DNA of 64,000 nucleotides from assembly GCA_016200135.1 (NCBI GenBank), contig JACQFI010000115.1, positions 1-64,000 of the forward strand, given 5' to 3'. Shown here one piece after another: positions 6,220-58,181 of this stretch (the first letter of the stretch is position 1; each line of letters opens with the position of its first letter). The stretch comes from Planctomycetota bacterium (GTDB taxonomy: Bacteria; Planctomycetota; SZUA-567; H5-PLA8). The notes below the pieces were generated by a model. It searched no databases and was not told the origin of the DNA. It saw nothing but the letters and a program-made list of their open reading frames with translations. Both the position numbers and the translations under genes were made by a program.

Positions 6220-9078
6220 TTATTTGCCCGCAGACGCCGGGTCGAGGAAGACGCCGCTGGCGATGGCGCAGGTGCCTTCCTGCTGGATCACGCTCGCGAT
6301 GCGCAGCGCGATCTGGCCTTTCACGTTCCAGAGCAGGTACTTGCCTTTCACGAAATCTTTCACGGACTGCGTGTCGAGCACGGCGCCGGTGTCGGCGTCG
6401 ACGGCCTCGACGGTGAGTTCGGTGGCTTTGCCCCAGGAGAGTACGTAGAGCGCGACCTGGTGCTCCTTGCCGTCGGTGATCTCGACGCCGATCTCGAACT
6501 GCTCGGGCGCAGTCCACGACGTAACCGTGCGGTCCTTGGCGGCGCCGGTCTTGACGAGATAGCGCGGGTCCTCGCGGTTGGGCGCCCAGGGAATGCCGTC
6601 GTTCTTGTTCAGCGGCGTAACGTTCGCGCACTTGGGCGCGGCGGAGGTATTCGCGTCGCCGGCGACGACGGCGCCTTCGGAACCGTAGACGGTCTTCCAG
6701 TTGCCCGCGGTGGTCTCGTCGATCTTCACGAACTTGGCCGCGGCGCGCTGCGGTTCGGCGACGGTGGCGGCGATCTTCTCGCGCCGGGCCTCGCCCGAGT
6801 CTGGGCAGTACGCGGCAAAGCTGAGCGCGAGGGCATCGCCGGGCTTCCAAGTTTTGTCGGTGATCAGATTCACGCCGCGGCCCTGCGGGTCGAGGTCGAT
6901 GCGCGTGATCTTGGCGCCGGTAATTTCGTAGGTCTCCGGCTTGTTCCAGAAGCCGTTCTGCTGCAACGGCTGGTCGCCGACGAGCATGAGCGTGTTGTCG
7001 AAGGCCTTGCGGAACTTCAGGCCGCGGGACTCGCTCCAGCCGAAAGCGGGCGAGGCCTGGCCGTTCTTGCCCACGAGCGCGCCCGCGGCGCAGGAGATGG
7101 AGAAGGGCACGGCGGCGTCTCTTACGTCGACGGTGATCTCGTCGCCGGCGATCTGCGCGCGGGCGGGGCGCGTGCCGGCGGTGTCGGCGAGCTGCAGGTC
7201 CTTGAGGCCGGCCGAGGCGTCCTTGGACGCGAGGCCGCCGCCGGTCTGCTTGAAGCGGAAGACGAGCGCATCCTTCTTGGCGGCGACGGCTTCGAGGTAG
7301 ACGCCGTGGTCTTCGAGGTCGTAACAGGCGATGCCGTCGAGCGTGCGGAGGAAGAGCTTGCCGCCGGCGATGGCGGGCGAGGACATCATGCAGATCTTGG
7401 GGTTGAAGCGGCCGAGTTCGACGAACTTGTCGGGCGTAGCCTTGATCATGGCGAACGAATAGGTGAGGTCGCCGAAGTTCTTGGTGAGTTGGTGGGCCTC
7501 GCCCAGGGGCGTGTAGATCTTGCCGTCGGCGAGAATGCTGCCGGAGCATTCGCAGACGCCGCCGGGGACGGGCTTCTTCCAGTTGAACTCGCCGGTCTTG
7601 AGGTCCACGCAGGTGTACATGCCGGCGGGCACGTAGACGTGGTCCTGGTAGACGTGCCCGACGCCGGGGATGGATTTCTTCCAGAGCAGTTCCGCGCCGG
7701 CGGGTGTGATCTTGTAGGCCTTTGTGCCGCTGCCGCCGTACTGCGGGGGCGCGATGAGGATGTCGCCGGCCGCCGTCACCATGCCGCCGATGGGGCTCTT
7801 GAGCGTCCAGAGGCTCTTGCCGGATTCCACGTCGAGGCAGCAGAAGGAGCTGTTGCTCTCTTCCTTGTAATCCGAGGAGACGATGTAGTTCTTGCCGTTC
7901 GCGACCATGACCGTCGGCGACCAGTAGCGCGCGGTCCATTCGTATTTCTTATGTCTGCCGTCCCAGAACGGGTTCTTCCAGAGGAGCTTGCCGGATTCGA
8001 GGTCGTAGGCGCAGCCGACGTGGTAGACGAGGTTGTTGACGACCAGCGGCGAGGCGTGCTCGGGATCGCCTCGCACCATCCACACCTGCGCGCCGTCCTT
8101 GGCGGAGAGGCAGTAGAGGCCCAGCGCGCCCGCGACGTAACACTTGCCTTTGAAGACCGCCGGAGTGGCGCAGACGCCGATGGCCTGCACCGAATTGGCG
8201 CCGCCGGAACCGAAGCACCACCATTGGACGTTCGGGTCCTTCGGCAGGTCTTTCTGTTCGATCGTGAAGGTCTTGCGCCAGAGTTCCTTGCCGGTCGCGA
8301 CGTCGAGGCAGACCACCATGTCCGACCAGGCGTACGCGCGGCCCCACATCGCTCCGGCGAGCCAGCAGGTAATGCCGATCTTTTCGAGCACGTGCTGCCA
8401 TTCGCGGAGATAGGGATGGCGCTCGTCTACTTTGGCGCTGAGCTTGGTGAGGATGTCCCAGGAGAGGCCGTCGGGGATACCCCACTTCTTGACGGGCTGG
8501 TCGATGCAGAGGCGGCGCTTGACGAACGCGCCGTACTTCTTGGCGTCGTCGGGCGTCAACGTGGCGAGGAAGTCTTTGATGAATTTGTCGAGCTCGGGCT
8601 TCTTGGCCAGATGCGCGTCGAGGTCGGAGTCCTTGTGCCCCGCTTCCCACCAAGGAAAGCCGGAGGCCGGGCGTTCCTTGGCGGCCCAGGCGGCCTCGAG
8701 CTTCTTGGCGAGTTCGTCGGGCAGTCCGGTCATCCAGCCGGCATCCGCGAGGACTTCCGGGGTCACGATCGCGTAGGGCTTGCCGGGAACGATGGGCTGC
8801 TTGGCGTTCGAATAGATGAAGACCTTGCCGTCGGAGACGACCGGGCTGCTGCAGCCGCCTTCTTCGCAGCCGGGGATCCACTCGCTCTTCCAGAGCAGCG
8901 GCGGGCCGTCCTTGGGCCAGGCGTCCAGGAGCTTCGGCCCGCCGGGCACGTTGCCGTCTCGGTTCGGGCCGCGGGACTGGGGCCAGTCGGCGCTCGGCGG
9001 CGTCTCCGCGCCGAGAGCGGCGAAGGCCGCGGCCAGAACGAAGGCGAAGAAGAATCGAGTGTACGTGTGAGTGCGCAT
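6220..9078 (-). CDS. Secreted PQQ-like/BamB-like beta-propeller repeat protein, long form with conserved C-terminal extra domain
   Basis: Signal peptide followed by the family-typical N-terminus SADWPQSRGPNRDG. Repeated (K/R)LLW(K/R) ... DG(K/I)(V/L)(Y/F) blade motifs. Member 8 of 8 in the tandem paralog array. Confidence 0.8.
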   Translation of the reverse strand: MRTHTYTRFFFAFVLAAAFAALGAETPPSADWPQSRGPNRDGNVPGGPKLLDAWPKDGPPLLWKSEWIPGCEEGGCSSPVVSDGKVFIYSNAKQPIVPGKPYAIVTPEVLADAGWMTGLPDELAKKLEAAWAAKERPASGFPWWEAGHKDSDLDAHLAKKPELDKFIKDFLATLTPDDAKKYGAFVKRRLCIDQPVKKWGIPDGLSWDILTKLSAKVDERHPYLREWQHVLEKIGITCWLAGAMWGRAYAWSDMVVCLDVATGKELWRKTFTIEQKDLPKDPNVQWWCFGSGGANSVQAIGVCATPAVFKGKCYVAGALGLYCLSAKDGAQVWMVRGDPEHASPLVVNNLVYHVGCAYDLESGKLLWKNPFWDGRHKKYEWTARYWSPTVMVANGKNYIVSSDYKEESNSSFCCLDVESGKSLWTLKSPIGGMVTAAGDILIAPPQYGGSGTKAYKITPAGAELLWKKSIPGVGHVYQDHVYVPAGMYTCVDLKTGEFNWKKPVPGGVCECSGSILADGKIYTPLGEAHQLTKNFGDLTYSFAMIKATPDKFVELGRFNPKICMMSSPAIAGGKLFLRTLDGIACYDLEDHGVYLEAVAAKKDALVFRFKQTGGGLASKDASAGLKDLQLADTAGTRPARAQIAGDEITVDVRDAAVPFSISCAAGALVGKNGQASPAFGWSESRGLKFRKAFDNTLMLVGDQPLQQNGFWNKPETYEITGAKITRIDLDPQGRGVNLITDKTWKPGDALALSFAAYCPDSGEARREKIAATVAEPQRAAAKFVKIDETTAGNWKTVYGSEGAVVAGDANTSAAPKCANVTPLNKNDGIPWAPNREDPRYLVKTGAAKDRTVTSWTAPEQFEIGVEITDGKEHQVALYVLSWGKATELTVEAVDADTGAVLDTQSVKDFVKGKYLLWNVKGQIALRIASVIQQEGTCAIASGVFLDPASAGK

Positions 9079-9093
9079 GTATGTTTCCTCGTT

Positions 9094-11970
9094 CTACTTT
9101 GTGGCCGCACTCACCGGGGCGTCGAAGAACACGCCGCCTGCCGCGGCGGTGGAACCCTCTCCGCCGGTGGTTCTGATGAACCGCAAGATAACAGATCCCT
9201 TGATATTCCAAACCAGATACCTGCCCTTGTTGTCCTTGAACTCGACGGTCTGTGTGTTCAGCACAGCTCCGGTATCGGGATTAAGCACCTCTACAGTCAG
9301 GATTGCGCCCCAGTGAAAACCGTAAACGGCAACCTGATGTTCCTTGCCGTCTGTGAGATCAATAGTGGCCTCGAACTGATCCTCAGAAGTCCATAATCTG
9401 ACGGTACGATCCAGAGCCGCTCCGGATTTTTGCAAGTAGCGCTCATCCTTGGGGTTCGCCGCCCACGGCGTTGCTTCTAACGCTTTCGTCAGCTTCACAG
9501 CCGCATAGGAGGGCGCGGCCGAAGCCTTGTCGCCGGCGATAACCGCGCCATCCTTGCCGTAAATGCCTTTCCAGTTCCCGAGGGTGGCCTCGTCCATCTT
9601 GACGAACGTGGCTGCCGGCCGCTGGGGCTCGACCACCGTATGATTCAACGTCGCCCGCCGGGGCTCGCCTTTTTCCACCGGGAAACAGGTATAAGTCAAA
9701 TTGATCGTATCGCCGGGCTTCCATGCCTTATCCGTGGTCAGGAGGACGTCCTTGAGCTTTGGATCGAGCGTGACGTCGGTGACCTTCGCGCCGGAAACGG
9801 CATAGGTTCCGGCCTTGTTCCAAGCGCCGTCCGGCAACAGGGGCAGGTCGCTGGACAGAATGATAGTGCGGTCCAAGCATATTCGCACCTTCAACTGGCG
9901 TGGCGTGTTCCAAACGAATGCGGGGACCGGTTTGCCGTTCTTGCCGGAAAGCGAATTGGCGGCCGGGAGCGAGACGCTGAACGGCGCCACGGCGTCCTTG
10001 ATATCCACAGCGATCGTGTCGCCGTCCACCTTCGCTTTGGCCGGATTTGAGACCCCTGCGGCATCGACAATCTGGAGGTCGTTCAAGCCGGATTTGACCA
10101 ACAATTCTCCGCCGGTCTGCCTGAACCGAAAGGTGAGCAAGTCCTTAGTCGCTTCCACGCCGCCGAGATAAATGCCGTGTTCCCGCAGATCAAAGCAGGC
10201 CACGCTGTCAAGCAGGCGCGTGAACAACTTCCCGTCCGAAAAGGCCGAGGCGCACATGAGGCACGCCTGCGGATCGAATCGGCCCAGCTCGATGTACTTC
10301 TCGGGCGTGGCCTTGAACATGATGAGCGGAGCGCCGCCGAGATAAATATGGGGACCGGTGCCTCCCATCTGGCCGATGACCTTTCCGTCAGCCAGCAGCG
10401 GTGGGGAGATCGTGTAATCAATGCTGTTCTTCCAGTTCACTTCGCCCGTCTTGAAATCTACACATTGGCGCATCATGTACAGGTGCTCCTGGCAGACGAC
10501 ATCGCCTTCGTAGTGGGCAAACCCCTTCTGCCAGAGCAATTCCGCACCAGTCGTCGACAGCTTATAGGCCTTGGTTCCGCCATACTCTTTGGAAAACCCA
10601 TGGCCGCTCAAACTTGGCCAAGGGACCGGCATGATCAGGGTGTCGCCATCCAGCGACGGAAACCATCCGGTGGGACCTTTCACGCTCCAGAGCTTTTTCC
10701 CGGTCTTCAGTTCGAGACAGGCAAAGTACCGGTCGCCTTCGTGGACGATGAGATGGTTCGTGCCACCGGAGGACCACACAACCGGGAAATTCCAGGCGTT
10801 GTCCCGTTCCCTCGCGCGCTGCGGACGGTCTTTGTTCTTCCAGAGTACAGCGCCGTTCTCGGCACTGTATGCGCACCCGCGGCCGTTGTCATAGACGACG
10901 CCGTCGGCAACCAGCAGCGCGGAGTGCGCGAAATCGCCCGGCACCTGCCACAAAAGCGCGCCGTCCTTCACCGCGAAACAGTACACGCTGAACGCCCCGG
11001 CCACGAAACAGCGGTCGCCGGCCACGGCCGGAGTGCTGCAAGCGCCGAGGAGGGAACAGGCCGCATCTTCCAATGGAATCTTCGTCACCGCGGCCGCATC
11101 GAGGGGAAAATCTTTCCGCCAGAGGGTCTTGCCTGTTGCGGCATCCAGGCAGAAGACGGTGTCCGACCACTTAAAGCAGCGTTTCCAGGACGTGTAGGCG
11201 GGGTACGTCTCGCAGAGGGTAGAGGCGTCGTTGGAAATCTTCCTTAACTCATTCGCCCACTTGTACCGGCTGCGATACCGGGTGTCGCGCAATTTGCTCA
11301 GTTTGCCAAGCGTGTCCCAGGTCTGGCCGGCGGGAACGCCATATCCACCTTTGCACGCGATACAGAGGCGCTTCCGGATGTAATCGCCGTATTTCTTGGC
11401 GTCTTCCGGTTTCAGCGTGGCGACAAAATCCTTGATGTACTTGTCCAACTCCGGCTTCTTGGCGAGAAAAGCATCCAGCGCGCCTTCTTTCTTGGACTGC
11501 GCGAGGTCGTACCACGCCCACCCGGCACTGCTGGGCCGGTCCTTGGAGGCCCACGCTTCTTCTATCTTCTTCGCTAAGTCCTCGGGAATATCCGGCAACC
11601 AACCCGCATCCAGCAGGAGCTCCGTGGTAATGAAACGGTACCCGTCCTGCGGCGCGATGCCCGTCGCAGCGTCGATCCCATCGACGGGCCACTTCGCGCT
11701 GGCGTACACAAACACCCTTCCGTCCGCCATTACAGGATCGCCGCAACCGCCCTCGTCGTAACCGGGTATCCATTCGCTCTTCCACAGGAGCGGCGGGCCT
11801 TCTTTGGGCCAGGTGTCCATCAATTTCGGACTGTTCACGACGATGCCACAGCCGTTCGGCCCGCGCCGCTGGGGCCAGCCGGAGTTCGACGGAGCCTCCG
11901 TGCCGAAGGCCGCGAAGGCTGCCGTAAGGCCAAAGGCCAGGAAGATTCGCGAGAGGACTTGCTTGCGCAT
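9094..11970 (-). CDS. Secreted PQQ-like beta-propeller repeat protein, long form
   Basis: Paralog: signal peptide, GWPQRRGPNG motif, propeller blades, and the conserved C-terminal motif FVKMDEATLGNWKGIYGKDGAVIAGD. Confidence 0.8.
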   Translation of the reverse strand: MRKQVLSRIFLAFGLTAAFAAFGTEAPSNSGWPQRRGPNGCGIVVNSPKLMDTWPKEGPPLLWKSEWIPGYDEGGCGDPVMADGRVFVYASAKWPVDGIDAATGIAPQDGYRFITTELLLDAGWLPDIPEDLAKKIEEAWASKDRPSSAGWAWYDLAQSKKEGALDAFLAKKPELDKYIKDFVATLKPEDAKKYGDYIRKRLCIACKGGYGVPAGQTWDTLGKLSKLRDTRYRSRYKWANELRKISNDASTLCETYPAYTSWKRCFKWSDTVFCLDAATGKTLWRKDFPLDAAAVTKIPLEDAACSLLGACSTPAVAGDRCFVAGAFSVYCFAVKDGALLWQVPGDFAHSALLVADGVVYDNGRGCAYSAENGAVLWKNKDRPQRARERDNAWNFPVVWSSGGTNHLIVHEGDRYFACLELKTGKKLWSVKGPTGWFPSLDGDTLIMPVPWPSLSGHGFSKEYGGTKAYKLSTTGAELLWQKGFAHYEGDVVCQEHLYMMRQCVDFKTGEVNWKNSIDYTISPPLLADGKVIGQMGGTGPHIYLGGAPLIMFKATPEKYIELGRFDPQACLMCASAFSDGKLFTRLLDSVACFDLREHGIYLGGVEATKDLLTFRFRQTGGELLVKSGLNDLQIVDAAGVSNPAKAKVDGDTIAVDIKDAVAPFSVSLPAANSLSGKNGKPVPAFVWNTPRQLKVRICLDRTIILSSDLPLLPDGAWNKAGTYAVSGAKVTDVTLDPKLKDVLLTTDKAWKPGDTINLTYTCFPVEKGEPRRATLNHTVVEPQRPAATFVKMDEATLGNWKGIYGKDGAVIAGDKASAAPSYAAVKLTKALEATPWAANPKDERYLQKSGAALDRTVRLWTSEDQFEATIDLTDGKEHQVAVYGFHWGAILTVEVLNPDTGAVLNTQTVEFKDNKGRYLVWNIKGSVILRFIRTTGGEGSTAAAGGVFFDAPVSAATK

Positions 11971-12096
11971 GTTTCAGGCCCCTTTGCACAGGTGAGGCGC
12001 TCACACCTGCATTGAACGGTGTTACGTCTTCCTTCACATACGCCGCCGGCCGAAGAAGGCGGCCTGGAGAAGTCTTTCCTCGGCCCGATAGTCATT

Positions 12097-12112
12097 TTCT
12101 GTGCTAGAAAAT
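12097..12112 (-). promoter_or_regulatory. Conserved upstream motif TTCTGTGCTAGAAAAT (extended: TCATTTTCTGTGCTAGAAAAT), copy 1, ~127 bp upstream of the 9094-11970 start codon
   Basis: The identical 16-mer recurs at 16905-16920 and 26044-26059, each ~126-129 bp upstream of a long-form propeller paralog. The outer arms TTTTCT/AGAAAA form an inverted repeat. Confidence 0.45.
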
Positions 12113-12179
12113 GCAGCGGACGGCACTGGGCGCCTGCGGGAGGCCGGAACGGCCCGCCATGGTCTTGGAAGCTACGCGA

Positions 12180-13955
12180 TCAAGGCGCGCGGAGATTGTA
12201 GCAGGCGATGACGTCGTTCTGGCGGAGGATGAGCGCGCCGCCGCTTAAGGCAGGAGAGGTCAGCGGGCACAGCTTGGGATCGAACTCGGCCAGGCGGGTG
12301 AATTCCGCGCCGGGCGCAGCGTTGGCGCTGAGCAGTTCGAGGCTGAACGTGTGCCCGCCATGCGGGCGGCTGATGACGTTGATCAGTTTGCCGTCGATGG
12401 TGACGGGACAAGAGGTCCCGCCTTCGCTGTTCTTGTACACTGGGCTGGTCCACTTCTGTTCGCCGGTCTTCAGGTCCAGGCAGTAGAAGGTGGTGGGGCC
12501 GAACTCGCGGATGTTCGAGTACACGTACAGATTATTCTGCGCGACGGTGTAGGTTCCCCAGCCGCCGACGGGTTTCTTCCAGAGCAGTTCCGCCTTGTCC
12601 GGCGACAGCTTGTAGGCGCGCACTTCCGTCGGCGAACCCATGATGGCGGCCAGGATATCGCCGCATACGACGGGAGAACTCCATTCGCTGGGCACGCCCT
12701 CAAACGTCCAGAGGCTCTTGCCGGTTTCCAGATCGAGGCAACACCACGCGTTGTTGCCGTCCGTGGAGATGACGCACGGCCTGCCCTGCGAGACCCACAG
12801 GGCGGGCGAGATGAACTTGCCCTTGGCCCAGACCGCCCACGAGGATTTCCAGGCCGGATTCGTCCAGAGCACCTTGCCGGTATTCGCGCTGTAGGCGGAT
12901 CCGTAGTGATAGACGATGCCATTGGCGGCCAGCGGCGAGGCGTGCGCCGGCTCGGTCTTGGCCTGCCACAGAAGGCTGCCGTCCTTGGCCGAGAGGCAAT
13001 ACAGCCCCGCCATGCCGGCGGCAAAACACATCCCGTCGAGCACGGCCGGCGTGCCGCTCGCGCCGATCTCGAGAAAACCGCCTTGGGGAATGCCGCGCCG
13101 GCCTTTGAGTGCCGTCCAGTCCGCGGGAAAGTCTTTCTTCCAGAGCGTCTTGCCGGTAGCGGCATCCAAGCAAAGAATGGTGTCCATCGGTTTGCATGCG
13201 CGCATCCAGACATTCTTGGAGAACGATCCGAGCACGCCTTGATGGCCGTCCCAGGCGTCCTTCCCGCACAGGAGCGCGGTCTTCTTTGAGTTCCATTCGA
13301 AGATGGACTCGATTTCCGTGTCTCGCAGCGTGCTCATCTTGACCAGTTCATCCCAGGTATACTCGGTCCCGTTCATGCAGAAGCGGCGCTTGATGTACGC
13401 GCCGTACTTTTGGGCATCCTGAGGGGGCAGCGTGCCGATGAAATCCTTCACATACTTGTTCAGCTCCGGGGTCTTCTCGATGAACGCGACGATGTCAGCG
13501 TCTTTGGGGGCTTCGACGTCGTACCAGGCCGGCGCGCCGCGGGTCGCCGGCCGCGCCAATCTCGCGGTCTCGATCTTCTTCGCCAGTTCGTCGGGAAGAT
13601 CGGGCAGCCAGCCGGCGTCGATCAGGGCTTCCGTGGTAATGGGCTTGAATTTCTTGCCACCACCGATGGGTTGCCTGGCATTGAAATAAAGAAACACTTT
13701 CCCATCCGCCACGACGGGACTGCCGCAGCCGGCCTCCTCGTAACCGGGGATCGGCTCGCTCTTCCAAACTAGCGGCGGGCCTTCCTTGGGCCACTCATCG
13801 AGCAGCTTAGGGCTGGCGAGCGCGGCGCCGTCGCGGTTGGGGCCGCGCCACTGGGGCCAGTCGGAGTATTGCGGCGTCTCGGCGCTCAGGAGCGTGGATG
13901 CACTCCACGCACACCATAGAAGAGCCCAAGCTGCACCATTCGACGCGTTGCTCAT
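12180..13955 (-). CDS. Secreted PQQ-like beta-propeller repeat protein, short form (propeller only)
   Basis: Signal peptide followed by YSDWPQWRGPNRDG. 591 aa, lacking the C-terminal extension. Only 16 nt separate it from the upstream paralog. Confidence 0.8.
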   Translation of the reverse strand: MSNASNGAAWALLWCAWSASTLLSAETPQYSDWPQWRGPNRDGAALASPKLLDEWPKEGPPLVWKSEPIPGYEEAGCGSPVVADGKVFLYFNARQPIGGGKKFKPITTEALIDAGWLPDLPDELAKKIETARLARPATRGAPAWYDVEAPKDADIVAFIEKTPELNKYVKDFIGTLPPQDAQKYGAYIKRRFCMNGTEYTWDELVKMSTLRDTEIESIFEWNSKKTALLCGKDAWDGHQGVLGSFSKNVWMRACKPMDTILCLDAATGKTLWKKDFPADWTALKGRRGIPQGGFLEIGASGTPAVLDGMCFAAGMAGLYCLSAKDGSLLWQAKTEPAHASPLAANGIVYHYGSAYSANTGKVLWTNPAWKSSWAVWAKGKFISPALWVSQGRPCVISTDGNNAWCCLDLETGKSLWTFEGVPSEWSSPVVCGDILAAIMGSPTEVRAYKLSPDKAELLWKKPVGGWGTYTVAQNNLYVYSNIREFGPTTFYCLDLKTGEQKWTSPVYKNSEGGTSCPVTIDGKLINVISRPHGGHTFSLELLSANAAPGAEFTRLAEFDPKLCPLTSPALSGGALILRQNDVIACYNLRAP

Positions 13956-13971
13956 GTGCGTGCTTTTTCCA

Positions 13972-16779: not shown

Positions 16780-16904
16780 GACTTCAGTCCTTTGCATGAG
16801 CGTCAGAATCACATGTGCTTTAATCACCGCTTCGTCCATTGTCGTATACTCCGGCCAAGGTATGCACAGACCTCTAGAAAGAGAGCCGTGGGTCAATAAG
16901 TATA

Positions 16905-16920
16905 TTCTGTGCTAGAAAAT
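16905..16920 (-). promoter_or_regulatory. Conserved upstream motif TTCTGTGCTAGAAAAT, copy 2 (~126 bp upstream of the 16779 start)
   Basis: Exact 16-mer match to copies at 12097 and 26044. An additional half-site-like CTAGAAA lies at 16873-16879. Confidence 0.45.
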
Positions 16921-16976
16921 TACGGTACTGCCCTCTCGGTTCTCCAGACGGCGAAGCGAGGCGCCGGCGCTCCAAA

Positions 16977-19634: not shown

Positions 19635-19639
19635 GCACT

Positions 19640-21454
19640 CTATTTTGCTCGCAGATCGTAACACGTCACACCGTCTTCGGATCGCACGAACATCAGCCCG
19701 CCCGCCAGCGCCACCGGATTTGACCAGGGGCATATTTTCGGTTTGAACTGCCCGAGGGAGATAAAGTTTTCAGGAGTGGCTCTCACCAAGTCCATCTGGC
19801 AACTTCCCCAGACATCTAGGTCGCCCTTCCCTCTCTTTATCACAATCATTTTCCCATCGGCCAGGAGCCAGGGAACTCCACAACTTTTGTCGGTCCAGTT
19901 CATTTTACCCGTCTTTACATCAAAACAGCATAACCCGGTAAGTTTGCTGGGTTTGATTTCGGTACCGGTGACGTATTCGTATAAGTGGTCTTGGTAGAGA
20001 ATCTGTCCGAGGCAATTGAGGCTTGCCCCCTCGGGACACCCATCCAACCTGGCGAGCGGTTCAACCTTGGCCGGCGATATCCTATAGAGGCCGACCATAA
20101 CCAGAACGTTGCCGGCGATTCCCACGCTGACAGGTTCCGCCTCATCGTTCTTCAGCGTCCAGCAGTTCTCTCCCGTTTTCAGGTCGAGACAGCTGAGAGA
20201 CTCTTTTGCATTTCCGGTGGATGCGAAGACATAGCTCCTGCCGTCCTGCGACCATATGAGCGCCGAGGAGTTGTCGCCGCCTTTCTGCCAGGCAGGAATG
20301 CCCTTCCAGAGAGGATTCTTCCAAAGTAATTTTCCGCTTTCGGCGTCGTAAGCAGATCCGCAATGATAAACAACACCATCCGCCACCAGCACCGAAGGAT
20401 GCACGGGGTCACGCTTAACGTACCATACCAGATTCCCGTCTTTCTCCGACACACAGTACAAGCCCCGGGCTCCGGTGAAATAACACTTGCCGTTCCAGAC
20501 GGCCGGCGAGGAACTGACTCCCAAGACTTCGCCGGCGTCAATGAAGGGGCCATTACACCAGTTGCCCGTTTCCTGTTTTATTTTGGCCAATGCATCGGCA
20601 TCCAGGGGAAAATCCTTCTTCCAGAGCATCTTGCCGGAAGCGGCATCCAGGCAAACCAGGGTATCCGATGCCATCGTGTAACCGTGTTTCCACACCGCTT
20701 CGAAGAACATGGACATGCCCAAGTGGTGCGTCAAATGGCCCCTGCGGGTAGTTTTGCTCAGTTCCCCCGCCCACTTCGTAAGCGACGGATATCCCACGTC
20801 CTGCATTTTGCTCAACGTGACCAACTCTTCCCAGGTAAAGCCGGGATCGTTCCCCCATTTGTTAGACACATGATTGATGCACAGTCGCCGCCGGATGTGC
20901 GCGTCGAATTTCTTAGCCTCGTCCGTACTCAACGTAGCAAGGAAATCCTTGATGTATTTGTCCAGCTCCGGCTTTTTCGCCAGAAACTCGTTCAGCGCAT
21001 TATCGTCCTTCATTTCCCACCACGGCCACCCGACGCTGTTCGGGCGGTTCGGAGATGACCAAGCGGCTTCGATTTTTTTCGCCAGTTCGTCCGGCAAATC
21101 CGGCAACCAGCCCGCGTTCGCCAACACGTCCGTGGTGATGAGTTTGTACAAGTTCCCACCGCCCACGGGTTGTTTCCATTGGACGTAAACGAACACTTTC
21201 CCATCAGCCACGACCGGCCCGCCGCATCCTCCGGAATAAAATCCGGGGATCCACTCGCTATTCCAAAGCACTGGCGGGCCTTCTTTGGGCCAACTGTCGA
21301 GAAGTTTAGGACTGTTGACCGCGATGCCGTCTCGGTTCGGTCCGCGCCATTGGGGCCAGTCGGAATTATTGGCCGGCGGCTCCGCCGCTGAAAGCAAACC
21401 TGCGCCAAGCAACGCCCCTGTCGCAAGGAGCACCGAAATCGCCATGTCTTTCAC
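19640..21454 (-). CDS. Secreted PQQ-like beta-propeller repeat protein, short form
   Basis: Signal peptide followed by NSDWPQWRGPNRDG. 604 aa. Confidence 0.8.
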   Translation of the reverse strand: MKDMAISVLLATGALLGAGLLSAAEPPANNSDWPQWRGPNRDGIAVNSPKLLDSWPKEGPPVLWNSEWIPGFYSGGCGGPVVADGKVFVYVQWKQPVGGGNLYKLITTDVLANAGWLPDLPDELAKKIEAAWSSPNRPNSVGWPWWEMKDDNALNEFLAKKPELDKYIKDFLATLSTDEAKKFDAHIRRRLCINHVSNKWGNDPGFTWEELVTLSKMQDVGYPSLTKWAGELSKTTRRGHLTHHLGMSMFFEAVWKHGYTMASDTLVCLDAASGKMLWKKDFPLDADALAKIKQETGNWCNGPFIDAGEVLGVSSSPAVWNGKCYFTGARGLYCVSEKDGNLVWYVKRDPVHPSVLVADGVVYHCGSAYDAESGKLLWKNPLWKGIPAWQKGGDNSSALIWSQDGRSYVFASTGNAKESLSCLDLKTGENCWTLKNDEAEPVSVGIAGNVLVMVGLYRISPAKVEPLARLDGCPEGASLNCLGQILYQDHLYEYVTGTEIKPSKLTGLCCFDVKTGKMNWTDKSCGVPWLLADGKMIVIKRGKGDLDVWGSCQMDLVRATPENFISLGQFKPKICPWSNPVALAGGLMFVRSEDGVTCYDLRAK

Positions 21455-21496
21455 TTTCTTCTCCTACTACCGCTGGTCCTGTTGCACCCTCCGCCA

Positions 21497-23275
21497 TCAC
21501 CTCGCCGTCAGATCGTAGCAGGCGACACCATCGACAAGACGCAAATACAATTTGTCGGCGGCAATGGCTGGGGAGCTGTACACATTGACTTTCGGGTTGA
21601 AAAGGCCTAGCTGGATATATTTCTCGGGAGTGGCTTTGACCATCTCGACCTGAAAACTGCCGTCATAATGGCCTTTCCCGAAAATATTGACGATCTTGCC
21701 GTCGGCCAGGGCCGTCACATTGCAAAGCGTTTCGCCGGGAAGCGCCTGGGTCCACCGGAGGGCGCCGGTTTTCATATCCAGACAATACCAGACCGCGCCG
21801 CTATCCGAGCAGCCCATCACAAAAAGAGAATCTTGAGCGACGAGATAACTTCCCCTCTCGTTCATTTTCACCGTCTGCTTCCACAGGAGCGTGGCGGCGG
21901 CTGGCGTCACCTTGTAGGCTTCCACTTGGGTCGCGCCGCGCAGAATCAGAGTGTCGCCGCTGAGGACCGGCGTGAAGATACTGGGCGCGCCCGGCACGCT
22001 CCAGACAACCTTTCCAGTATCCAATTCAAGACAGCACCAGGAGCGATTGCCGTCGGTGGTGATGATATAATCTTTGCCTGCCGCAGACCATAGAATCGGA
22101 GAACTGACATTTGCGGCAAATTCCCATTGCCTCAAGTTGGACTTCCATTGAGGGTGTTTCCAGAGCAACTTGCCGTCGGTGGCGTTGTAGGCCGCGCCGC
22201 AGTGATACACCACTCCCTTGGCGACCAGCGGCGAGGCATGCGCCGGTTCATCCTTCACCTGCCACAAGAGAACACCGTCCTTGGCCGACAGGCAATACAA
22301 CCCCATGATCCCGGCAAAGTAGCACTTACCCTCCGAGAGGGTCGGCGTGCCGCTGGCGCCAATGTATCCAAAACCGCCATTGCCCACGTTCAAGTAGCGC
22401 ATCACCCGCTCCCGATCTTCCGGGAAATCTTTTTTCCAGAGTTCTTTTCCCGAGGCGGCATCCAGGCAGACGAGCGTGTCGGACTGCGTACTCGCTCGCA
22501 ACCAGGCGTTGGGTATAAGCCAGCCGGCTTTGTCGTCGAAAACCGCTCTGTCAAAAAACAACTCGCTTCCCGACCTTTTCTGGTAATTCCAGGCAAACTC
22601 CGTCTCCTTGTCGCGCCACGCGCTCATCTTGGTCAATTCGTCCCATGTGAAACCGCCCGTCGGATTCCAACCCTTTTTCGGTCCGGATATGCAGAGCCGC
22701 CGTTTGATATACGTTCCGTATTTTTGGGCGTCTGCCGGAGACAGGGTAGCGACGAAATCCTTGATGTACTTGTCCACTTCCGGCGTTTGCGCGATGAACG
22801 CTTCAAGCTCTGCATCCTTCGGGCCGGTGACGGCATACCAAGGCGGCGCTTTGGCGCAGCTCGGCCGGTTGGGGGAAGCCCAGGATTCTTCGATCTTCTT
22901 CGCCAACGCGTCGGGAAGGTCCGGCAACCAGCCGGCATCCAGCAGCAATTCCGTCGTGACCAGGCGGTATTTGCGTCCTCCACCGACCGGACGCATCCAG
23001 TTGACGTACAGAAAAACTTTTCCATCCGCCACCACCGGACTGCCGGCGCCGCCCTCGCCGCAGCCGGGGATCCATTCGCTCTTCCAGACTTGCGGGGGGC
23101 CTTCCTTGGGCCAGGCGTCGAGCAGTTTGGGGCTATTGAGCGCGATGCCGTCGCGGTTGGGGCCGCGCCACTGCGGCCAGTCGGAACGCGCCGGGGCTTC
23201 CGCGCCTAAAAGCGTGGCGACGCCGCACATAAAGAGGTGCGCAGTGGCGGTCCGAAGATTCAGAGCAAGGGTCAT
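21497..23275 (-). CDS. Secreted PQQ-like beta-propeller repeat protein, short form
   Basis: Signal-like N-terminus followed by RSDWPQWRGPNRDG. 592 aa. Confidence 0.8.
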   Translation of the reverse strand: MTLALNLRTATAHLFMCGVATLLGAEAPARSDWPQWRGPNRDGIALNSPKLLDAWPKEGPPQVWKSEWIPGCGEGGAGSPVVADGKVFLYVNWMRPVGGGRKYRLVTTELLLDAGWLPDLPDALAKKIEESWASPNRPSCAKAPPWYAVTGPKDAELEAFIAQTPEVDKYIKDFVATLSPADAQKYGTYIKRRLCISGPKKGWNPTGGFTWDELTKMSAWRDKETEFAWNYQKRSGSELFFDRAVFDDKAGWLIPNAWLRASTQSDTLVCLDAASGKELWKKDFPEDRERVMRYLNVGNGGFGYIGASGTPTLSEGKCYFAGIMGLYCLSAKDGVLLWQVKDEPAHASPLVAKGVVYHCGAAYNATDGKLLWKHPQWKSNLRQWEFAANVSSPILWSAAGKDYIITTDGNRSWCCLELDTGKVVWSVPGAPSIFTPVLSGDTLILRGATQVEAYKVTPAAATLLWKQTVKMNERGSYLVAQDSLFVMGCSDSGAVWYCLDMKTGALRWTQALPGETLCNVTALADGKIVNIFGKGHYDGSFQVEMVKATPEKYIQLGLFNPKVNVYSSPAIAADKLYLRLVDGVACYDLTAR

Positions 23276-23350
23276 CGTGGGTTGTTCCTATCGGCGCTCC
23301 CGGCGCATGGACTGGCCAGGCGGCGATTGCGTGGTTTTTCTTTCGCGCGG

Positions 23351-25915
23351 CTATTTGGCCGGCGCCGCGGGGGGATCGATGAAGACGCCGCCCACCCAGA
23401 CGGCGTGGCCTTCATCCTGGATGGTGGTGATCACGCGCGCGATCACCTGGCCTTTGAGGTTCCAGACGAGGTACTGCTCCTTCTTGGCATCGGCGAGGGT
23501 CTGGGTGTCCAGGATCGCCTTCGTATCGGCGTCCTGCATCTCCACGGTGATGGCGCCGCCCGCGGGGAGGTAGAGCGCCACCTGATGCTCCTTGCCGTCG
23601 GTGAACTCGAGGTCGACGTCCATCTGTTCGCCGGCGCGCCACCACGTGATCGAACGGCCCGTGGCGTTGCCGGAGAGCTGCAGGTTGCGGGTGTTGGCCT
23701 GCGTGTTCGCCCACGGGACGCTGTCGACCTTGTTGTTCACCGTTACGTTCGCGCACTTGGGGACCGCGCCGGCCTTCTCGGCGCAGATCACGGCGCCTTC
23801 CGTGCCGTAAACGCCCTTCCAGTTTCCGGAAGTGGTCTCGTCGCCCTTCACAAACTTGGCAGCCGCGCGCTGAGGTTCGGCGACGGTGGCGGTCATCTTC
23901 TCGCGGCGGGGCTCGCCCTGGCTCACCGGGAAAGCGGCGTACATCAGCGTCACGGCGTCGCCGGTCTTCCAGGTCTTGTCCGTGATCAGGTTCACGCCCT
24001 TGCCTTCCGGATCGAGATCGACGCGCGTGACCTTCGCGCCGGCGAGTTCGAAGTTCTCGGGCTTGTTCCAGCGCCCGTCCTGCTGGAGCGGCAGGTCGCT
24101 CGTGAGCATGATCGTGTTCTCGAAACCTTTCCGGAATTTCAGCAAGCGCGCTTCGTTCCAGGCGAAGGCCGTCACAGGCTGGCCATTCTTGGCCGCCAGC
24201 GCGCCGCCGCCCGCGTACGAGAGGCTAAACGGGACCGCGGCATTCCGGATGTCGACGACGATCTCGTCGCCGTTGATCTGCGCCGCGGCCGGTCGCGTTC
24301 CGGCGGCGTCGGCGATCTGCAGGCCGTTGGACGGGTCCTTGACCGCCAGGCCGCCGCCGGTCTGCTTGAAGCGGAAAGTGAGCGCGTCCTTGGCGGCCGC
24401 CACGGCGTCGAGGTACGCGGCGTGTTCCTGGAGGTCGTAGCAGGCGATGCCGTCGAGCAGGCGCAGGTACAGCTTCCCGCCGGCGATGGCCGGCGAGGTC
24501 ATCATGCACATCTTCGGATTGAAGACGCCGAGTTCGACGTATTTCTCGGGCGTGGCTTTGATCATCGCGAGGGAGTAGGTGAGGTCGCCGAAGTTCTTGG
24601 TCAACTGGTGGCTCTCGCCCAGCGTCGTGAAGAGTTTCCCATCGGCAAGGACGGTCGCGGAGAACTCGCCGACGCCGCCCCGCATCGACTGCTTCCAGTT
24701 GAACTCCCCCGACTTCAGGTCCAGGCACTTGTAGGCGCCGCCGGGCACGTACAGGTGGTCCTGCCAGACGATGTCACCCAGGCCGTCGCTGAAGGGCTTC
24801 TTCCAGAGGACTTCCGCGCCCGCCGGCGTGATCCTGCACGCCTTGGCGCCGCTCCCGGCGTAACTGGTCGCGACCATCAGGAGGTCCCCGCACAAGGTCG
24901 GGATCGTGTTCATGTCGCCCTTCAGGGACCACTGGACCTTGCCGGTTTCCAGGTCGAGGCAGACGTACGCGGAGTTGTGATCGTCGGCGCAGTTGGAGGT
25001 GACGATGTAGTTCCGGCCGCCGGCGGCGAAGAGGAGCGGCGAACTGTAGCGCGCGTTCGTTTCGTAGCGCTTGTGCTTGGCGTCCCAGAGTGAATTTTTC
25101 CAGAGGACGGCGCCGGACTCGGCGTTATACGCAACGCCCGCGTGGTACACGATGCCGTTGGCGACCAGCGGCGAACAGTGCTCGGGGTCCGCCTTCGCCT
25201 GCCACAGCAGTGCGCCGTCCTTGGCCGAGAGGCAGTACAGCCCCATGGCTCCGGCGGCGTAGCACTTGCCGCTCCAGACCGCCGGCGTGGCGCTGACGAA
25301 ACCGTCTTCAAAGGTCCACCACTGCACCCCGCCCAGCTTTTTCAGTAGGGCGGTATCGACGGGAAAATCCTTCCGCCACAGGGTCTTGCCCGAGGCGGCA
25401 TCCAGGCAGACAACCGTATCGTTCAAGATTGTGGCGTGCCTCCACGCGTAGTATTGAGGATAGCTGGCGAAGGCGCCCAGTTTCACATCCTTGATCTTCC
25501 CCAGCGCTTTTTCCCATTCGCGTTTGCTGGCGATGCCCACATCTTTCAGACTTTCCAGCTTCACCGCGACGTCTGCGGTAATGATGTTGTCCTTGATCGC
25601 GGCGTTGAGGATCTCCGTCGTGACCAGCTTGTACGTCTGCCCGCCGCCCACGGGCAGTTTCGCGTTGGCGTAGACGAACACCTTTCCATCCGCCACGACA
25701 GGACTGGCGACGCCGCCCTCTTCACAGGCGGGGATCCATTCGCTCTTCCAGAGCTGCTGCGGCCCTTCTTTGGGCCAGGCGTCGAGGAGTTTGGGGCTGT
25801 TGAGCGCGATGCCGTCGCGGTTGGGGCCGCGCCACTGGGGCCAGTCGCTGTCCGCGGCGGTGGCGCATGACGCGAAGACCGCCATGCAGAACACTGCTTG
25901 AATGCGCGTGTGCAT
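23351..25915 (-). CDS. Secreted PQQ-like beta-propeller repeat protein, long form (first gene of the array in the direction of transcription)
   Basis: The start is refined to MHTRIQAVFCMAVFASCATAADSDWPQWRGPNRDG (the ORF extends to 25987). Contains FVKGDETTSGNWKGVYGTEGAVICAE. Confidence 0.75.
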   Translation of the reverse strand: MHTRIQAVFCMAVFASCATAADSDWPQWRGPNRDGIALNSPKLLDAWPKEGPQQLWKSEWIPACEEGGVASPVVADGKVFVYANAKLPVGGGQTYKLVTTEILNAAIKDNIITADVAVKLESLKDVGIASKREWEKALGKIKDVKLGAFASYPQYYAWRHATILNDTVVCLDAASGKTLWRKDFPVDTALLKKLGGVQWWTFEDGFVSATPAVWSGKCYAAGAMGLYCLSAKDGALLWQAKADPEHCSPLVANGIVYHAGVAYNAESGAVLWKNSLWDAKHKRYETNARYSSPLLFAAGGRNYIVTSNCADDHNSAYVCLDLETGKVQWSLKGDMNTIPTLCGDLLMVATSYAGSGAKACRITPAGAEVLWKKPFSDGLGDIVWQDHLYVPGGAYKCLDLKSGEFNWKQSMRGGVGEFSATVLADGKLFTTLGESHQLTKNFGDLTYSLAMIKATPEKYVELGVFNPKMCMMTSPAIAGGKLYLRLLDGIACYDLQEHAAYLDAVAAAKDALTFRFKQTGGGLAVKDPSNGLQIADAAGTRPAAAQINGDEIVVDIRNAAVPFSLSYAGGGALAAKNGQPVTAFAWNEARLLKFRKGFENTIMLTSDLPLQQDGRWNKPENFELAGAKVTRVDLDPEGKGVNLITDKTWKTGDAVTLMYAAFPVSQGEPRREKMTATVAEPQRAAAKFVKGDETTSGNWKGVYGTEGAVICAEKAGAVPKCANVTVNNKVDSVPWANTQANTRNLQLSGNATGRSITWWRAGEQMDVDLEFTDGKEHQVALYLPAGGAITVEMQDADTKAILDTQTLADAKKEQYLVWNLKGQVIARVITTIQDEGHAVWVGGVFIDPPAAPAK

Positions 25916-26043
25916 GATGGGTTTTCCTCGTCCGCGTTCATGGTTAGGTGGAAAGAGTTTGCCAAGCCCCTGCATCGTCTTCGACATACGCCACTGTTGG
26001 ACGCCCTGCGGCGAATTCTTGTTGCCTGCTTCTTAAAGTCATT

Positions 26044-58169: not shown

Positions 58170-58181
58170 GCGTCCTCCTTG

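What the first reader, a model, noticed from the sequence alone, without database searches (positions are those of the whole stretch)
6220..25987. Tandem array of eight secreted PQQ-like beta-propeller paralogs occupying ~20 kb (31% of the window), alternating long and short architectures
Eight consecutive minus-strand genes all begin with a signal peptide followed by the near-invariant (S/N)DWPQ(W/S/R/F)RGPNRDG motif and multi-blade propeller repeats. Five are long forms (878-974 aa) with a ~330-aa C-terminal extension; three are short forms (591-604 aa) with the propeller only. The transcription order is long-short-short-long | long-short | long-long. Intergenic gaps are 5-75 nt. The size of the local expansion, the mixture of architectures, and the two AraR-like regulators with a Sel1 membrane protein immediately upstream suggest a lineage-specific secreted module (surface binding or polysaccharide/xenobiotic sensing?) rather than classical PQQ dehydrogenases. 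No PQQ-dehydrogenase Trp-docking or catalytic Asp-Tyr-Asp signatures were obvious to me. The function of this family in PVC bacteria is essentially unknown.
Basis: seen in the sequence. Interest (0 to 1): 0.7.

Follow-up and report, generated by a model that had tools for sequence, protein, structure and literature searches.

The report
Sugar-regulated array of secreted propeller proteins
Eight neighbouring genes in an uncultured planctomycete encode old, diverged copies of a secreted BamB-like (not PQQ-enzyme) beta-propeller protein, arranged as three units that share an operator-like palindrome; they most likely bind or sense glycans, but no function has been tested.

Summary
Eight consecutive minus-strand genes (6220-25987) encode paralogs that are 44-62% identical. 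Five are long and three are short, and all have signal-peptide-like N-termini. They are old paralogs, not an assembly artefact.

They are not PQQ dehydrogenases. Only Pfam PQQ_2 (BamB-type) passes its cutoff, and the dehydrogenase and BamB equivalog models fail by a wide margin. The AlphaFold model is an 8-bladed propeller closest to BamB and tetrathionate hydrolase, with a ~150-aa helical insert in one loop of blade 1.

The long forms add two Ig-like domains and a CBM35/CBM6-like jelly roll. That jelly roll has no Pfam or NCBIfam model, yet it matches ~3,960 protein clusters.

New here: a perfect palindrome (ATTTTCT-N5-AGAAAAT) sits ~124 nt upstream of exactly three genes and splits the array into three units. 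The same half-sites precede an orthologous GntR/sugar-binding regulator-propeller pair in another metagenome. Orthologues of the window regulator at 358-1455 flank family members in three other loci.

Best reading: sugar-induced secreted glycan-binding or glycan-sensing proteins (~0.45). The main rival is a new cofactor-free carbohydrate-active enzyme family (~0.27). This is a new variant of a known kind, of moderate interest.

The parts
6220..9078 (-). G1, long form (952 aa). Signal peptide 9007-9078. Propeller with helical insert 7306-8988 (insert 8335-8793). Ig-like domain 1 7021-7305. Ig-like domain 2 6751-7020. Terminal CBM-like jelly roll 6223-6750.
   Evidence: ORF. PQQ_2 65.7 bits. Identical to NCBI MBI3832152.1. 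The C-extension model has pLDDT 92.7 with three beta-sandwich domains. Coordinates.
9094..11970 (-). G2, long form (958 aa); first gene of the third transcription unit. Its N-terminal motif is degenerate (SGWPQRRGPNGCG).
   Evidence: Best hits are the orthologues P0023 and P0021 at 59-60%.
12180..13955 (-). G3, short form (591 aa), propeller with insert only.
   Evidence: Its closest relative is G7 at 52%.
13972..16779 (-). G4, long form (about 935 aa from the ATG at 16779; the maximal ORF reaches 16896). First gene of the second transcription unit.
   Evidence: Start inferred from the alignment of the three upstream regions.
16977..19634 (-). G5, long form lacking the first Ig-like domain (877-885 aa; the maximal ORF reaches 19733 and overlaps G6).
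   Evidence: Orthologues are P0035 (60%) and P0024 (67% over the propeller).
19640..21454 (-). G6, short form (604 aa, GTG start), with the lowest GC3 of the array (0.67).
   Evidence: Orthologue P0053 at 56%.
21497..23275 (-). G7, short form (592 aa). This is the protein that was modelled: an 8-bladed propeller with a ~150-aa helical insert between strands B and C of blade 1.
   Evidence: AlphaFold2 pLDDT 85.6, pTM 0.87. Foldseek best hits are BamB 8orr (8e-16) and tetrathionate hydrolase 6l8a.
23351..25915 (-). G8, long form (854 aa from the ATG at 25915; the maximal ORF reaches 25987). It lacks ~70 aa of the helical insert. First gene of the first transcription unit.
   Evidence: NCBI annotates 854 aa (P0008). 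The ATG at 25987 lies inside the conserved upstream element.
26041..26059 (-). Operator-like perfect palindrome ATTTTCT-AGCAC-AGAAAAT, 126 nt upstream of the G8 start.
   Evidence: One of only 3 matches in 64 kb, against 0 expected in 100 shuffles. Alignment.
16902..16920 (-). The same palindrome with one mismatch (ATTTTCTAGCACAGAATAT), 123 nt upstream of the G4 start.
12094..12112 (-). The same palindrome, perfect, 124 nt upstream of the G2 start.
25984..25992 (-). Second shared upstream element GG[CA]GTAT[GA][TC], 62-63 nt downstream of the palindrome centre and 64-68 nt before the ATG. Possibly a promoter -10-like element. Further copies at 16844-16852 and 12036-12044.
   Evidence: Similar G(C)GTAT(A/G)T strings lie upstream of homologues in L172, L006, L174 and L009 (read by eye).
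358..1455 (+). reg1: an AraR-type regulator (GntR winged helix plus LacI-type sugar-binding domain). Candidate regulator of the array.
   Evidence: Pfam GntR and Peripla_BP_3. It is 41-43% identical over its full length to regulators directly next to family members in L174 and L172, and 33% to the one in L006.
3157..4395 (+). reg2: a second GntR/Peripla_BP_3 regulator, only distantly related to reg1.
   Evidence: Weak similarity to L006_regB. Any link to the array is inferred from position only.

Best explanation
The array is a sugar-responsive regulon of three co-regulated transcription units: G8-G7-G6-G5, G4-G3 and G2-G1. It encodes eight diverged, Sec-exported, non-catalytic beta-propeller proteins that bind or sense glycans in the periplasm or at the cell surface.

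Each protein is a BamB-type 8-bladed propeller. Its structural core, one set of loops (A-B and C-D) and its N-terminal closing strap are conserved. The opposite loops (B-C and D-A) vary between paralogs. By the usual propeller convention those variable loops form the ligand-binding face, and the ~150-aa helical insert is on that face. This would give each copy its own specificity.

The five long forms add two Ig-like spacer domains and a terminal CBM35/CBM6-like jelly roll. This module would tether or target the protein to a polysaccharide.

Expression is probably controlled by an AraR-type GntR/sugar-binding regulator (reg1, 358-1455) acting on the palindrome ATTTTCT-N5-AGAAAAT.

Shown: gene structure, fold class, domain architecture, the non-membership tests, the palindromes, and the recurring regulator and CAZyme neighbourhoods.

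Inferred: export, glycan binding, which regulator binds the palindrome, and the absence of catalysis.
For: 1. Fold and family. Only PQQ_2 passes its cutoff (62-89 bits). The nearest structures are the cofactor-free 8-bladed propellers BamB, tetrathionate hydrolase and YxaL.

2. No conserved catalytic-looking cluster. Across 107 family members, positions at >=85% identity are almost all repeat-motif or strap positions. A-B and C-D loops score 0.71-0.78 and the N-strap 0.74-0.87. B-C and D-A loops score only 0.25-0.49 and carry 100 of the 163 indel columns within the propeller, against 4 in the A-B and C-D loops.

3. The propeller is used as a sensor-type module. P0073 and P0088 are ECF sigma factor - transmembrane segment - propeller with the same insert.

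5. Context of homologues. GH172 x2, GH5 and GH42-like. AraC, GH5-CBM2, SASA, BNR x2 and GH123. GH113 and GH123-like. SASA and GDSL. GH4 and GDSL. In the window itself: PIG-L, GH29, a pectate-lyase-like protein and AraC.

6. Regulation. There are three palindromes, against none expected by chance, at a fixed ~124 nt from the starts of G8, G4 and G2. The same half-sites lie upstream of a reg1 orthologue that precedes a G5 orthologue in L174. reg1 orthologues sit next to family genes in L006, L172 and L174.
Against: - No binding has been measured. The CBM-like similarity is at fold level only (7-13% identity), and such jelly rolls also occur in adhesins, toxins and proteases.
- A signal peptide, then a large domain, then Ig-like linkers, then a CBM is the classic layout of an enzyme rather than a binding protein.
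- Variable B-C and D-A loops are common in propellers generally.
- The top/bottom assignment comes from strand topology, not from coordinates, which I could not inspect.
- Several homologous loci (L173, L008) have no CAZyme neighbours.
- A few conserved polar residues lie outside the blade motif and could be functional: D266, R193, K527 and R579 in G7 numbering.
- The regulator-palindrome link rests on one orthologous locus.
- In the window the regulators are 5-6 kb from the nearest palindrome and none precedes them.
Confidence: 0.45

Rival explanations
1. The propeller with its helical cap is the catalytic module of a new, cofactor-independent carbohydrate-active enzyme family (lyase, hydrolase or esterase-like). 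The long forms are the same enzyme with Ig-like linkers and a CBM attached. The eight paralogs cover different linkages of one complex polysaccharide.
For: - The layout signal peptide - large domain - Ig-like - CBM-like, with C-terminal modules swapped between relatives, is typical of CAZymes.
- Short (catalytic-only) and long (CBM-bearing) versions coexist, as in many GH and PL families.
- The genes sit among GH and CE genes and next to sugar-responsive regulators.
- Tetrathionate hydrolase, a cofactor-free enzyme, is among the closest structures.
- An insert on the variable face could act as a lid.
- D266 is 99% conserved, immediately after the insert at the start of strand C of blade 1.
Against: - There is no constellation of invariant acidic, His or Tyr residues outside the structural repeat across 107 members at 30-60% identity.
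- The loops that would line a central active site are the least conserved part.
- ECF sigma fusions argue for a sensing or binding domain.
- There is no similarity to any propeller GH or PL family in Pfam.
Confidence: 0.27
2. They are protein-protein interaction scaffolds or chaperone-like factors of the cell envelope, in the manner of BamB or YxaL. They would organise or assemble outer-membrane or secreted protein complexes, and the link to carbohydrates would be indirect.
For: BamB is the best sequence and structure match in the PDB. Conservation is concentrated in the N-terminal strap and one face, which could be a common docking surface for a shared partner.
Against: - BamB equivalog models score 17-47 bits against cutoffs of 285 and 423.
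- No lipobox is present in seven of the eight.
- Eight copies with CBM-like modules under an apparent sugar-type regulator do not fit a housekeeping assembly factor.
- No Bam genes lie nearby.
Confidence: 0.12
3. They are genuine PQQ-dependent (Ca or lanthanide) dehydrogenases that oxidise sugars or alcohols in the periplasm.
For: They have an eight-bladed propeller with the PQQ-type blade motif. There are weak local hits to PF01011 and TIGR03075. PQQ-ADH structures appear at ranks 47-50 in Foldseek.
Against: - PF01011 reaches 15-30 bits with no significant stretch, on a 595-position model. TIGR03075 reaches 20-23 bits against a cutoff of 480.
- The propeller core is BamB-sized and lacks the long loops that build the PQQ pocket.
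- A vicinal Cys-Cys occurs in only four of the eight, inside a beta-strand.
- No conserved Glu/Asn/Asp metal-ligand set is present. These hallmarks are as summarised in PMC13088180.
- No cytochrome c domain is present.
Confidence: 0.03
4. The array is an assembly artefact, either a mis-assembled repeat or a chimera of several populations.
For: GC3 differs markedly between neighbouring copies, from 0.67 to 0.90. The source is a metagenome-assembled contig.
Against: - Copies are only 60-83% identical at the DNA level, far too diverged to confuse an assembler.
- All ORFs are intact with regular short spacers.
- Tandem sets with partly conserved order (G5-like, G4-like, G1-like) occur on independent contigs.
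Confidence: 0.01

Closest known systems
BamB (YfgL), lipoprotein of the beta-barrel assembly machine; Pfam PQQ_2 (PF13360)
   Same: Eight-bladed propeller without a cofactor. It has the same blade motif (x-D-x-x-T-G-x-x-x-W) and an N-terminal strand that closes the ring. It is the best PDB match by sequence (E 7e-8) and by structure (8e-16).
   Different: No lipobox. A ~150-aa helical insert in blade 1. C-terminal Ig-like and jelly-roll domains in five of the eight. Eight copies in tandem. Equivalog models are missed by a factor of 6 or more in score. The neighbours are sugar regulators and CAZymes, not envelope-biogenesis genes.
Tetrathionate hydrolase (Acidithiobacillus, PDB 6l8a)
   Same: A cofactor-free, secreted 8-bladed PQQ_2-type propeller, second-best structural match (8.6e-16, TM-score 0.53-0.56 normalised to the target). 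It shows that this fold can be an enzyme without PQQ.
   Different: 16-18% identity. The helical insert and C-terminal modules are not part of the match. No sulfur-metabolism context here. Equivalence of its catalytic Asp was not tested.
PQQ-dependent alcohol/methanol dehydrogenases (PF01011, TIGR03075)
   Same: Eight blades with Trp-containing repeat motifs; periplasmic location.
   Different: The family models fail. There is no conserved vicinal disulfide or metal/PQQ ligand set, and the propeller is much smaller.
Periplasmic beta-propeller sensor domains of Bacteroides hybrid two-component systems, and surface glycan-binding proteins (SGBP-B, SusE/F) of polysaccharide utilisation loci
   Same: Works like: a non-catalytic propeller or an Ig-plus-CBM-like chain that recognises glycans in sugar-regulated loci. 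SGBP-B structures top the Foldseek list for the C-extension (7k44 at 4e-8, 5e7g). Some relatives are fused to ECF sigma factors. The HTCS precedent is from my own knowledge and was not tested here.
   Different: No sequence relationship. TM-scores are low (about 0.2) because only individual domains match. I saw no SusC/SusD pair or lipoprotein anchor. The propeller family is different (PQQ_2, not Reg_prop).
CBM35 / CBM6 / CBM22 family carbohydrate-binding modules
   Different: Identity is 3-13%. There is no Pfam or NCBIfam match. Sugar and Ca sites were not examined. It forms its own large family of ~3,960 clusters, often as 3-12 tandem copies in giant proteins.
AraR of Bacillus subtilis (GntR-type DNA-binding domain fused to a LacI/GalR-type sugar-binding domain)
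   Same: reg1 and reg2 have this chimeric architecture. The target-like site is a short AT-rich palindrome repeated before several operons.
   Different: The operator sequence, the effector and whether it acts as repressor or activator are all unknown. The palindrome centre is ~62 nt upstream of a possible -10-like element, which is unusual for a simple repressor.

Membership tests
PQQ-dependent dehydrogenase (methanol/ethanol/glucose type) | Full-length match to the family models above the curated cutoffs (Pfam PF01011; NCBIfam TIGR03075) | tested here: not met
   PF01011 scores 15-30 bits with 0 significant stretches. Only G1 nominally exceeds 26.7, on an 80-residue fragment of a 595-position model. 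TIGR03075 scores 20-23 bits against a cutoff of 480.
PQQ-dependent dehydrogenase (methanol/ethanol/glucose type) | Conserved vicinal Cys-Cys disulfide over the cofactor, and a Glu/Asn/Asp metal-ligand set with a catalytic Asp (as summarised in PMC13088180 and bioRxiv 10.64898/2026.07.10.737718) | tested here: not met
   CC occurs in 4 of 8 paralogs, within the strand 'CCLD'. No conserved acidic or Asn cluster lies outside the blade motif in 107 members. Positions could not be checked in 3D.
PQQ-dependent dehydrogenase (methanol/ethanol/glucose type) | Eight-bladed propeller with Trp-containing blade motifs | tested here: met
   The model has 8 four-stranded blades. C-x-D-x-x-[TS]-G-x-x-x-W is conserved in blades 1-4 and 6. 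This feature is shared with BamB, so it does not discriminate.
BamB (outer membrane protein assembly factor) | Match to the equivalog models TIGR03300 and NF008351 above cutoff | tested here: not met
   17-47 bits against cutoffs of 285 and 423.
BamB (outer membrane protein assembly factor) | Lipoprotein signal peptide with a lipobox Cys; a single ~390-aa propeller without extra domains | tested here: not met
   N-termini end in A-x-A/E-type sites. Only G8 has a doubtful 'FASC' (by eye). The proteins have a 150-aa insert and 280-360-aa extensions.
Pfam PQQ_2 (PF13360) beta-propeller superfamily | Score above the gathering threshold | tested here: met
   All eight score 62-89 bits against a cutoff of 27.6.
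Carbohydrate-binding module (CBM6/35-like jelly roll) | Beta-jelly-roll fold superposable on characterised CBMs | tested here: met
Carbohydrate-binding module (CBM6/35-like jelly roll) | Sequence membership of a defined CBM family; demonstrated sugar binding | tested here: not met
   No Pfam or NCBIfam hit for the domain and no PDB sequence hit. dbCAN/CAZy models were not available. Binding cannot be tested with these tools.
AraR-type (GntR/LacI-chimera) regulator controlling the array | GntR winged-helix domain plus a Peripla_BP sugar-binding domain | tested here: met
   358-1455 and 3157-4395.
AraR-type (GntR/LacI-chimera) regulator controlling the array | The regulator binds a palindromic operator in front of the regulated operons | tested here: inconclusive
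   Three palindromes lie at the three unit starts. The same half-sites precede an orthologous regulator-propeller pair in L174. Binding itself cannot be tested here.
Bacteroidetes-type polysaccharide utilisation locus (SGBP role) | An adjacent SusC/SusD pair; surface lipoprotein anchoring | tested here: not met
   No SusC/SusD-like families were found among the window genes scanned or in the neighbour tables of the homologous loci.

The most novel reading that the evidence does not exclude
The helix-capped propeller is the catalytic module of a previously unrecognised, cofactor-free family of carbohydrate-active enzymes restricted to uncultured Planctomycetota. Its terminal jelly roll founds a new, very widespread carbohydrate-binding module family: about 3,960 clusters at 50% identity, up to 12 copies per protein, and no Pfam or NCBIfam model. 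The eight paralogs, switched on together through one palindromic operator, would then be a complete toolkit for a single complex glycan.
Probability: 0.25. Interest if true: 0.75.

Novelty: new variant of a known kind. Interest (0 to 1): 0.45.

Why it matters
Planctomycetota are major degraders of complex polysaccharides, yet they lack the SusC/D-type loci that organise glycan capture in Bacteroidota. How they recognise and hold substrates is poorly understood.

A sugar-regulated family of secreted propellers with interchangeable carbohydrate-binding-like tails is a concrete candidate for that missing recognition layer, or for a new enzyme class.

Two by-products can be used at once:
- A defined operator-like palindrome with a candidate regulator, testable by EMSA.
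- A large beta-sandwich domain family with no Pfam or NCBIfam model, which deserves a profile and a binding test.

The result also corrects the database label 'PQQ-binding-like'. That label invites a wrong metabolic inference of quinoprotein dehydrogenases in metagenome annotation.

Tried and rejected
1. A word-index search with the C-extension alone gave only 7 fragment hits and did not even return the known long forms. It was uninformative about other domain contexts, so I replaced it with the exhaustive profile search.

2. A word-index search with a profile of the helical insert returned 3 fragments. I cannot say whether the insert occurs outside the family.

They show that the motif is generic, but they were useless for array statistics.

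4. The sigma-70 promoter and intrinsic-terminator scan gave no more sites than shuffled sequence.

5. Rfam and tRNA scans of the window found nothing.

6. I compared the small unknown genes upstream of homologous arrays (262 aa in L009, 286 aa in L004) with window ORFs. There was no similarity. The window ORFs 27423-28244(-) and 28306-29025(-) look like antisense artefacts of the ORF at 27573-28223(+) and of the PhoU gene at 28354-29046(+).

7. The Nat Commun 2024 fucoidan/Planctomycetota paper (PMC11685898) does not mention PQQ, propeller or BamB. I found no paper describing this family.

8. No exact or near-exact copy of the palindrome was found in L006 or L172. The regulator-operator link therefore rests on L174.

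9. Recent gene conversion was rejected: the maximum is 83% identity over 300 nt between G1 and G8.

Full report
**Observation**

The window carries eight consecutive minus-strand ORFs between 6220 and 25987. Their translations align over their whole length.

Pairwise identity is 44-59% in the propeller part and 40-62% in the C-terminal extension. Five are long (maximal ORFs 878-974 aa) and three are short (591-604 aa).

All begin with a hydrophobic segment ending in small residues, followed within ten residues by DWPQWRGPNRDG or a variant. G1 has ADWPQS and G2 has SGWPQRRGPNGCG.

The window is an NCBI contig of a 'MAG: Planctomycetes bacterium' (67.8 kb). G1 is MBI3832152.1, annotated 'PQQ-binding-like beta-propeller repeat protein'.

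**Not an artefact, not a recent burst**

The best DNA identity between any two copies is 83% over 300 nt, and it is usually 60-75%.

For six of the eight, the best hit is a protein from another metagenome rather than a window paralog:
- G1-P0002, 63%
- G2-P0023, 60%
- G4-P0004, 55%
- G5-P0035, 60%
- G6-P0053, 56%
- G7-P0044, 62%

G8 is nearly tied between P0004 and G1. G3 is closest to G7.

Tandem sets recur elsewhere. There is a G5-like, G4-like, G1-like triple on a 20.9-kb contig. Pairs occur, and four members on one contig.

The paralogs are therefore old orthogroups. The eight-gene array is the largest seen among the eleven contexts I could fetch.

**What the proteins are**

Only Pfam PQQ_2 (PF13360, the BamB-type propeller) passes its cutoff, at 62-89 bits.
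- The dehydrogenase domain model PF01011 gives 15-30 bits with no significant stretch.
- NCBIfam TIGR03075 (PQQ alcohol dehydrogenases) gives 20-23 bits against a cutoff of 480.
- The BamB equivalogs give 17-47 bits against cutoffs of 285 and 423.

A profile of the eight finds BamB first in the PDB, at E 7e-8.

An AlphaFold2 model of G7 was built on 59 sequences (pLDDT 85.6, pTM 0.87). It shows eight four-stranded blades, an N-terminal strap that closes the ring, and a helical insert of ~150 residues between strands B and C of blade 1.

Foldseek puts BamB (8orr, 8e-16), tetrathionate hydrolase (6l8a) and YxaL ahead of PQQ alcohol dehydrogenases, which rank 47-50.

Blades 1-4 and 6 carry the C-x-D-x-x-[TS]-G-x-x-x-W motif in nearly all members, and blades 5 and 7 keep it only partly. 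BamB shares the motif, so it says nothing about PQQ.

The hallmarks that do define quinoproteins are a vicinal disulfide and a metal/PQQ ligand set (PMC13088180; bioRxiv 10.64898/2026.07.10.737718). These are not conserved here.

**The extension**

The 361-residue extension of G1 models confidently (pLDDT 92.7) as three beta-sandwich domains. G5 lacks the first.

Foldseek lists surface glycan-binding proteins (SGBP-B 7k44, 5e7g) and CBM-bearing enzymes first, with low TM-scores because only single domains match.

The terminal domain has no Pfam, NCBIfam or PDB sequence match.

An exhaustive profile search nevertheless finds it in 3,961 cluster representatives, 1,110 of them at E<=1e-30. It often occurs as 3-12 tandem copies in proteins of up to 3,785 aa. 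One example is a 2,548-aa protein of Aquisphaera giovannonii. Partner domains there are Ig-like, PKD, subtilase, GH10 and others.

Relatives of the propeller carry other tails:
- a different C-terminal domain without a Pfam match (P0063 group)
- a Malectin domain (P0110, a distant relative)
- a second propeller (P0011, P0017, P0067, P0068)

**Where the family varies**

In a 107-sequence alignment, positions at >=85% identity are almost entirely the blade motif, glycines and prolines, and the N-terminal strap.

Using the strand assignment of the model, conservation (frequency of the commonest residue) sorts as follows:

| Region | Conservation |
|---|---|
| A-B and C-D loops | 0.71-0.78 |
| N-terminal strap | 0.74-0.87 |
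| Strands | 0.57-0.66 |
| B-C and D-A loops | 0.25-0.49 |

The B-C and D-A loops also hold 100 of the 163 indel columns that fall within the propeller, against 4 in the A-B and C-D loops.

By the usual propeller convention the B-C and D-A loops form the ligand-binding face. The helical insert is itself a B-C loop. I could not inspect coordinates, so this is inferred from topology.

The pattern fits a common scaffold with a diversified recognition face. It argues against a conserved catalytic pocket, though a few conserved polar residues (D266, R193, K527, R579 in G7 numbering) remain unexplained.

**Use as a sensor**

Two relatives (P0073, P0088) are an ECF sigma factor, a transmembrane segment, and then this propeller including the insert. 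That is the layout of an extracytoplasmic sensing domain.

**Context**

Homologues lie among carbohydrate-active genes:
- two GH172, GH5 and GH42-like
- AraC, GH5-CBM2, SASA esterase, two BNR proteins and GH123
- GH113 and a GH123-like protein
- SASA and GDSL
- GH4 and GDSL

Two loci show nothing of the kind.

In the window the array is followed by an unknown secreted protein, two GntR/Peripla_BP_3 regulators and a Sel1 membrane protein. All are on the other strand. It is preceded by a glyoxalase-like gene and a PIG-L deacetylase. A GH29 fucosidase, AraC, a weak PL14-like hit and a pectate-lyase-like protein lie 13-20 kb away.

**Regulation (new)**

The three longer non-coding stretches share a perfect palindrome, ATTTTCT-AGCAC-AGAAAAT, at 26041-26059, 16902-16920 (one mismatch) and 12094-12112. 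These are the only three matches in 64 kb at up to three mismatches. None was seen in 100 shuffles.

Each lies 123-126 nt before the ATG that opens the signal peptide of G8 (25915), G4 (16779) or G2 (11970). A second shared element, GG[CA]GTAT[GA][TC], lies 62-63 nt downstream of the palindrome centre.

It also fixes the likely start codons.

Among the 174 fetched loci, the pattern TTTTCT-N5-AGAAAA occurs once. It is in L174, ~85 nt upstream of a GntR/PBP regulator that directly precedes P0024, a G5 orthologue.

That regulator is 41% identical over its full length to window reg1 (358-1455). Further orthologues of reg1 sit directly beside family members in L172 (43%) and L006 (33%).

Which protein binds the palindrome, and whether it represses or activates, is inferred and not shown.

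**Verdict**

The finding is real, and the negative part of the interpretation (not quinoprotein dehydrogenases) is well supported.

- Most likely, the proteins are sugar-induced, exported glycan-binding or glycan-sensing propellers, some with a CBM-like anchor (0.45).
- The enzyme-like modular layout keeps a new cofactor-free CAZyme family alive as a serious rival (0.27).
- A BamB-like scaffold role (0.12), PQQ dehydrogenases (0.03) and an assembly artefact (0.01) are less likely.

It is a new variant of a known kind, the PQQ_2/BamB-type propeller superfamily. It has three features I found in no annotation or paper (literature searches): the helical insert, the jelly-roll domain without a Pfam or NCBIfam model, and the palindrome-defined regulon.

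Noticed in passing
window 6223-6750 (G1) and the equivalent ends of G2, G4, G5 and G8; also P0127-P0276: The terminal ~170-aa jelly-roll domain has no Pfam or NCBIfam model. It nevertheless matches 3,961 cluster representatives (1,110 at E<=1e-30). It often occurs as 3-12 tandem copies in giant extracellular proteins, for example 12 copies in Aquisphaera giovannonii WP_148596404.1, which is mis-named 'TAP-like/dockerin'.
   Followed up: partly
window 6220-25915: GC3 differs strongly between neighbouring paralogs of the same transcription units. G6 is 0.67, G4 0.70, G7 0.71 and G2 0.75, against G3 0.81, G5 0.86, G8 0.88 and G1 0.90. Most flanking genes are 0.80-0.91. This may reflect different ages or origins of the copies.
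   Followed up: no
P0073 and P0088 (relatives from metagenomes): The same propeller, with its helical insert, is fused behind an ECF sigma factor and a transmembrane segment. This is a one-polypeptide sigma/sensor arrangement.
   Followed up: partly
window 53988-62746: A possible defence-type island: an AAA ATPase with IetA/TRIP13-like hits (53988-55652), a DUF6744 protein (55898-56983), a ThiF/E1-like protein (58182-59381) and a PD-(D/E)XK Cas4-like nuclease (61811-62746), with several unknown genes between them.
   Followed up: partly
window 26250-26650 (-), 27573-28223 (+), 28354-29046 (+): A small glyoxalase/VOC gene lies directly upstream of the G8 control region. A 216-aa ORF with no Pfam hit and a PhoU gene lie on the plus strand. 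The long minus-strand ORFs over those two (27423-28244, 28306-29025) look like antisense artefacts.
   Followed up: partly
window 6460-9396 (+), 10177-11247 (+), 23237-25093 (+): Very long spurious ORFs (up to 978 aa) run antisense to the array genes, as expected in GC-rich DNA. A naive longest-ORF caller would pick the wrong strand for G1, G2 and G6.
   Followed up: yes
window 4810-6171 (+): A 453-aa protein with a signal-peptide-like N-terminus and only a sub-threshold DUF5643 hit converges on the 3' end of G1. No relation to the array was established.
   Followed up: no
L006 and L174: Two loci from different samples share FeeM, a YgaP-like TM protein and an ECF sigma gene next to regulator-propeller units. 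This suggests conserved synteny around this family in a related lineage.
   Followed up: no
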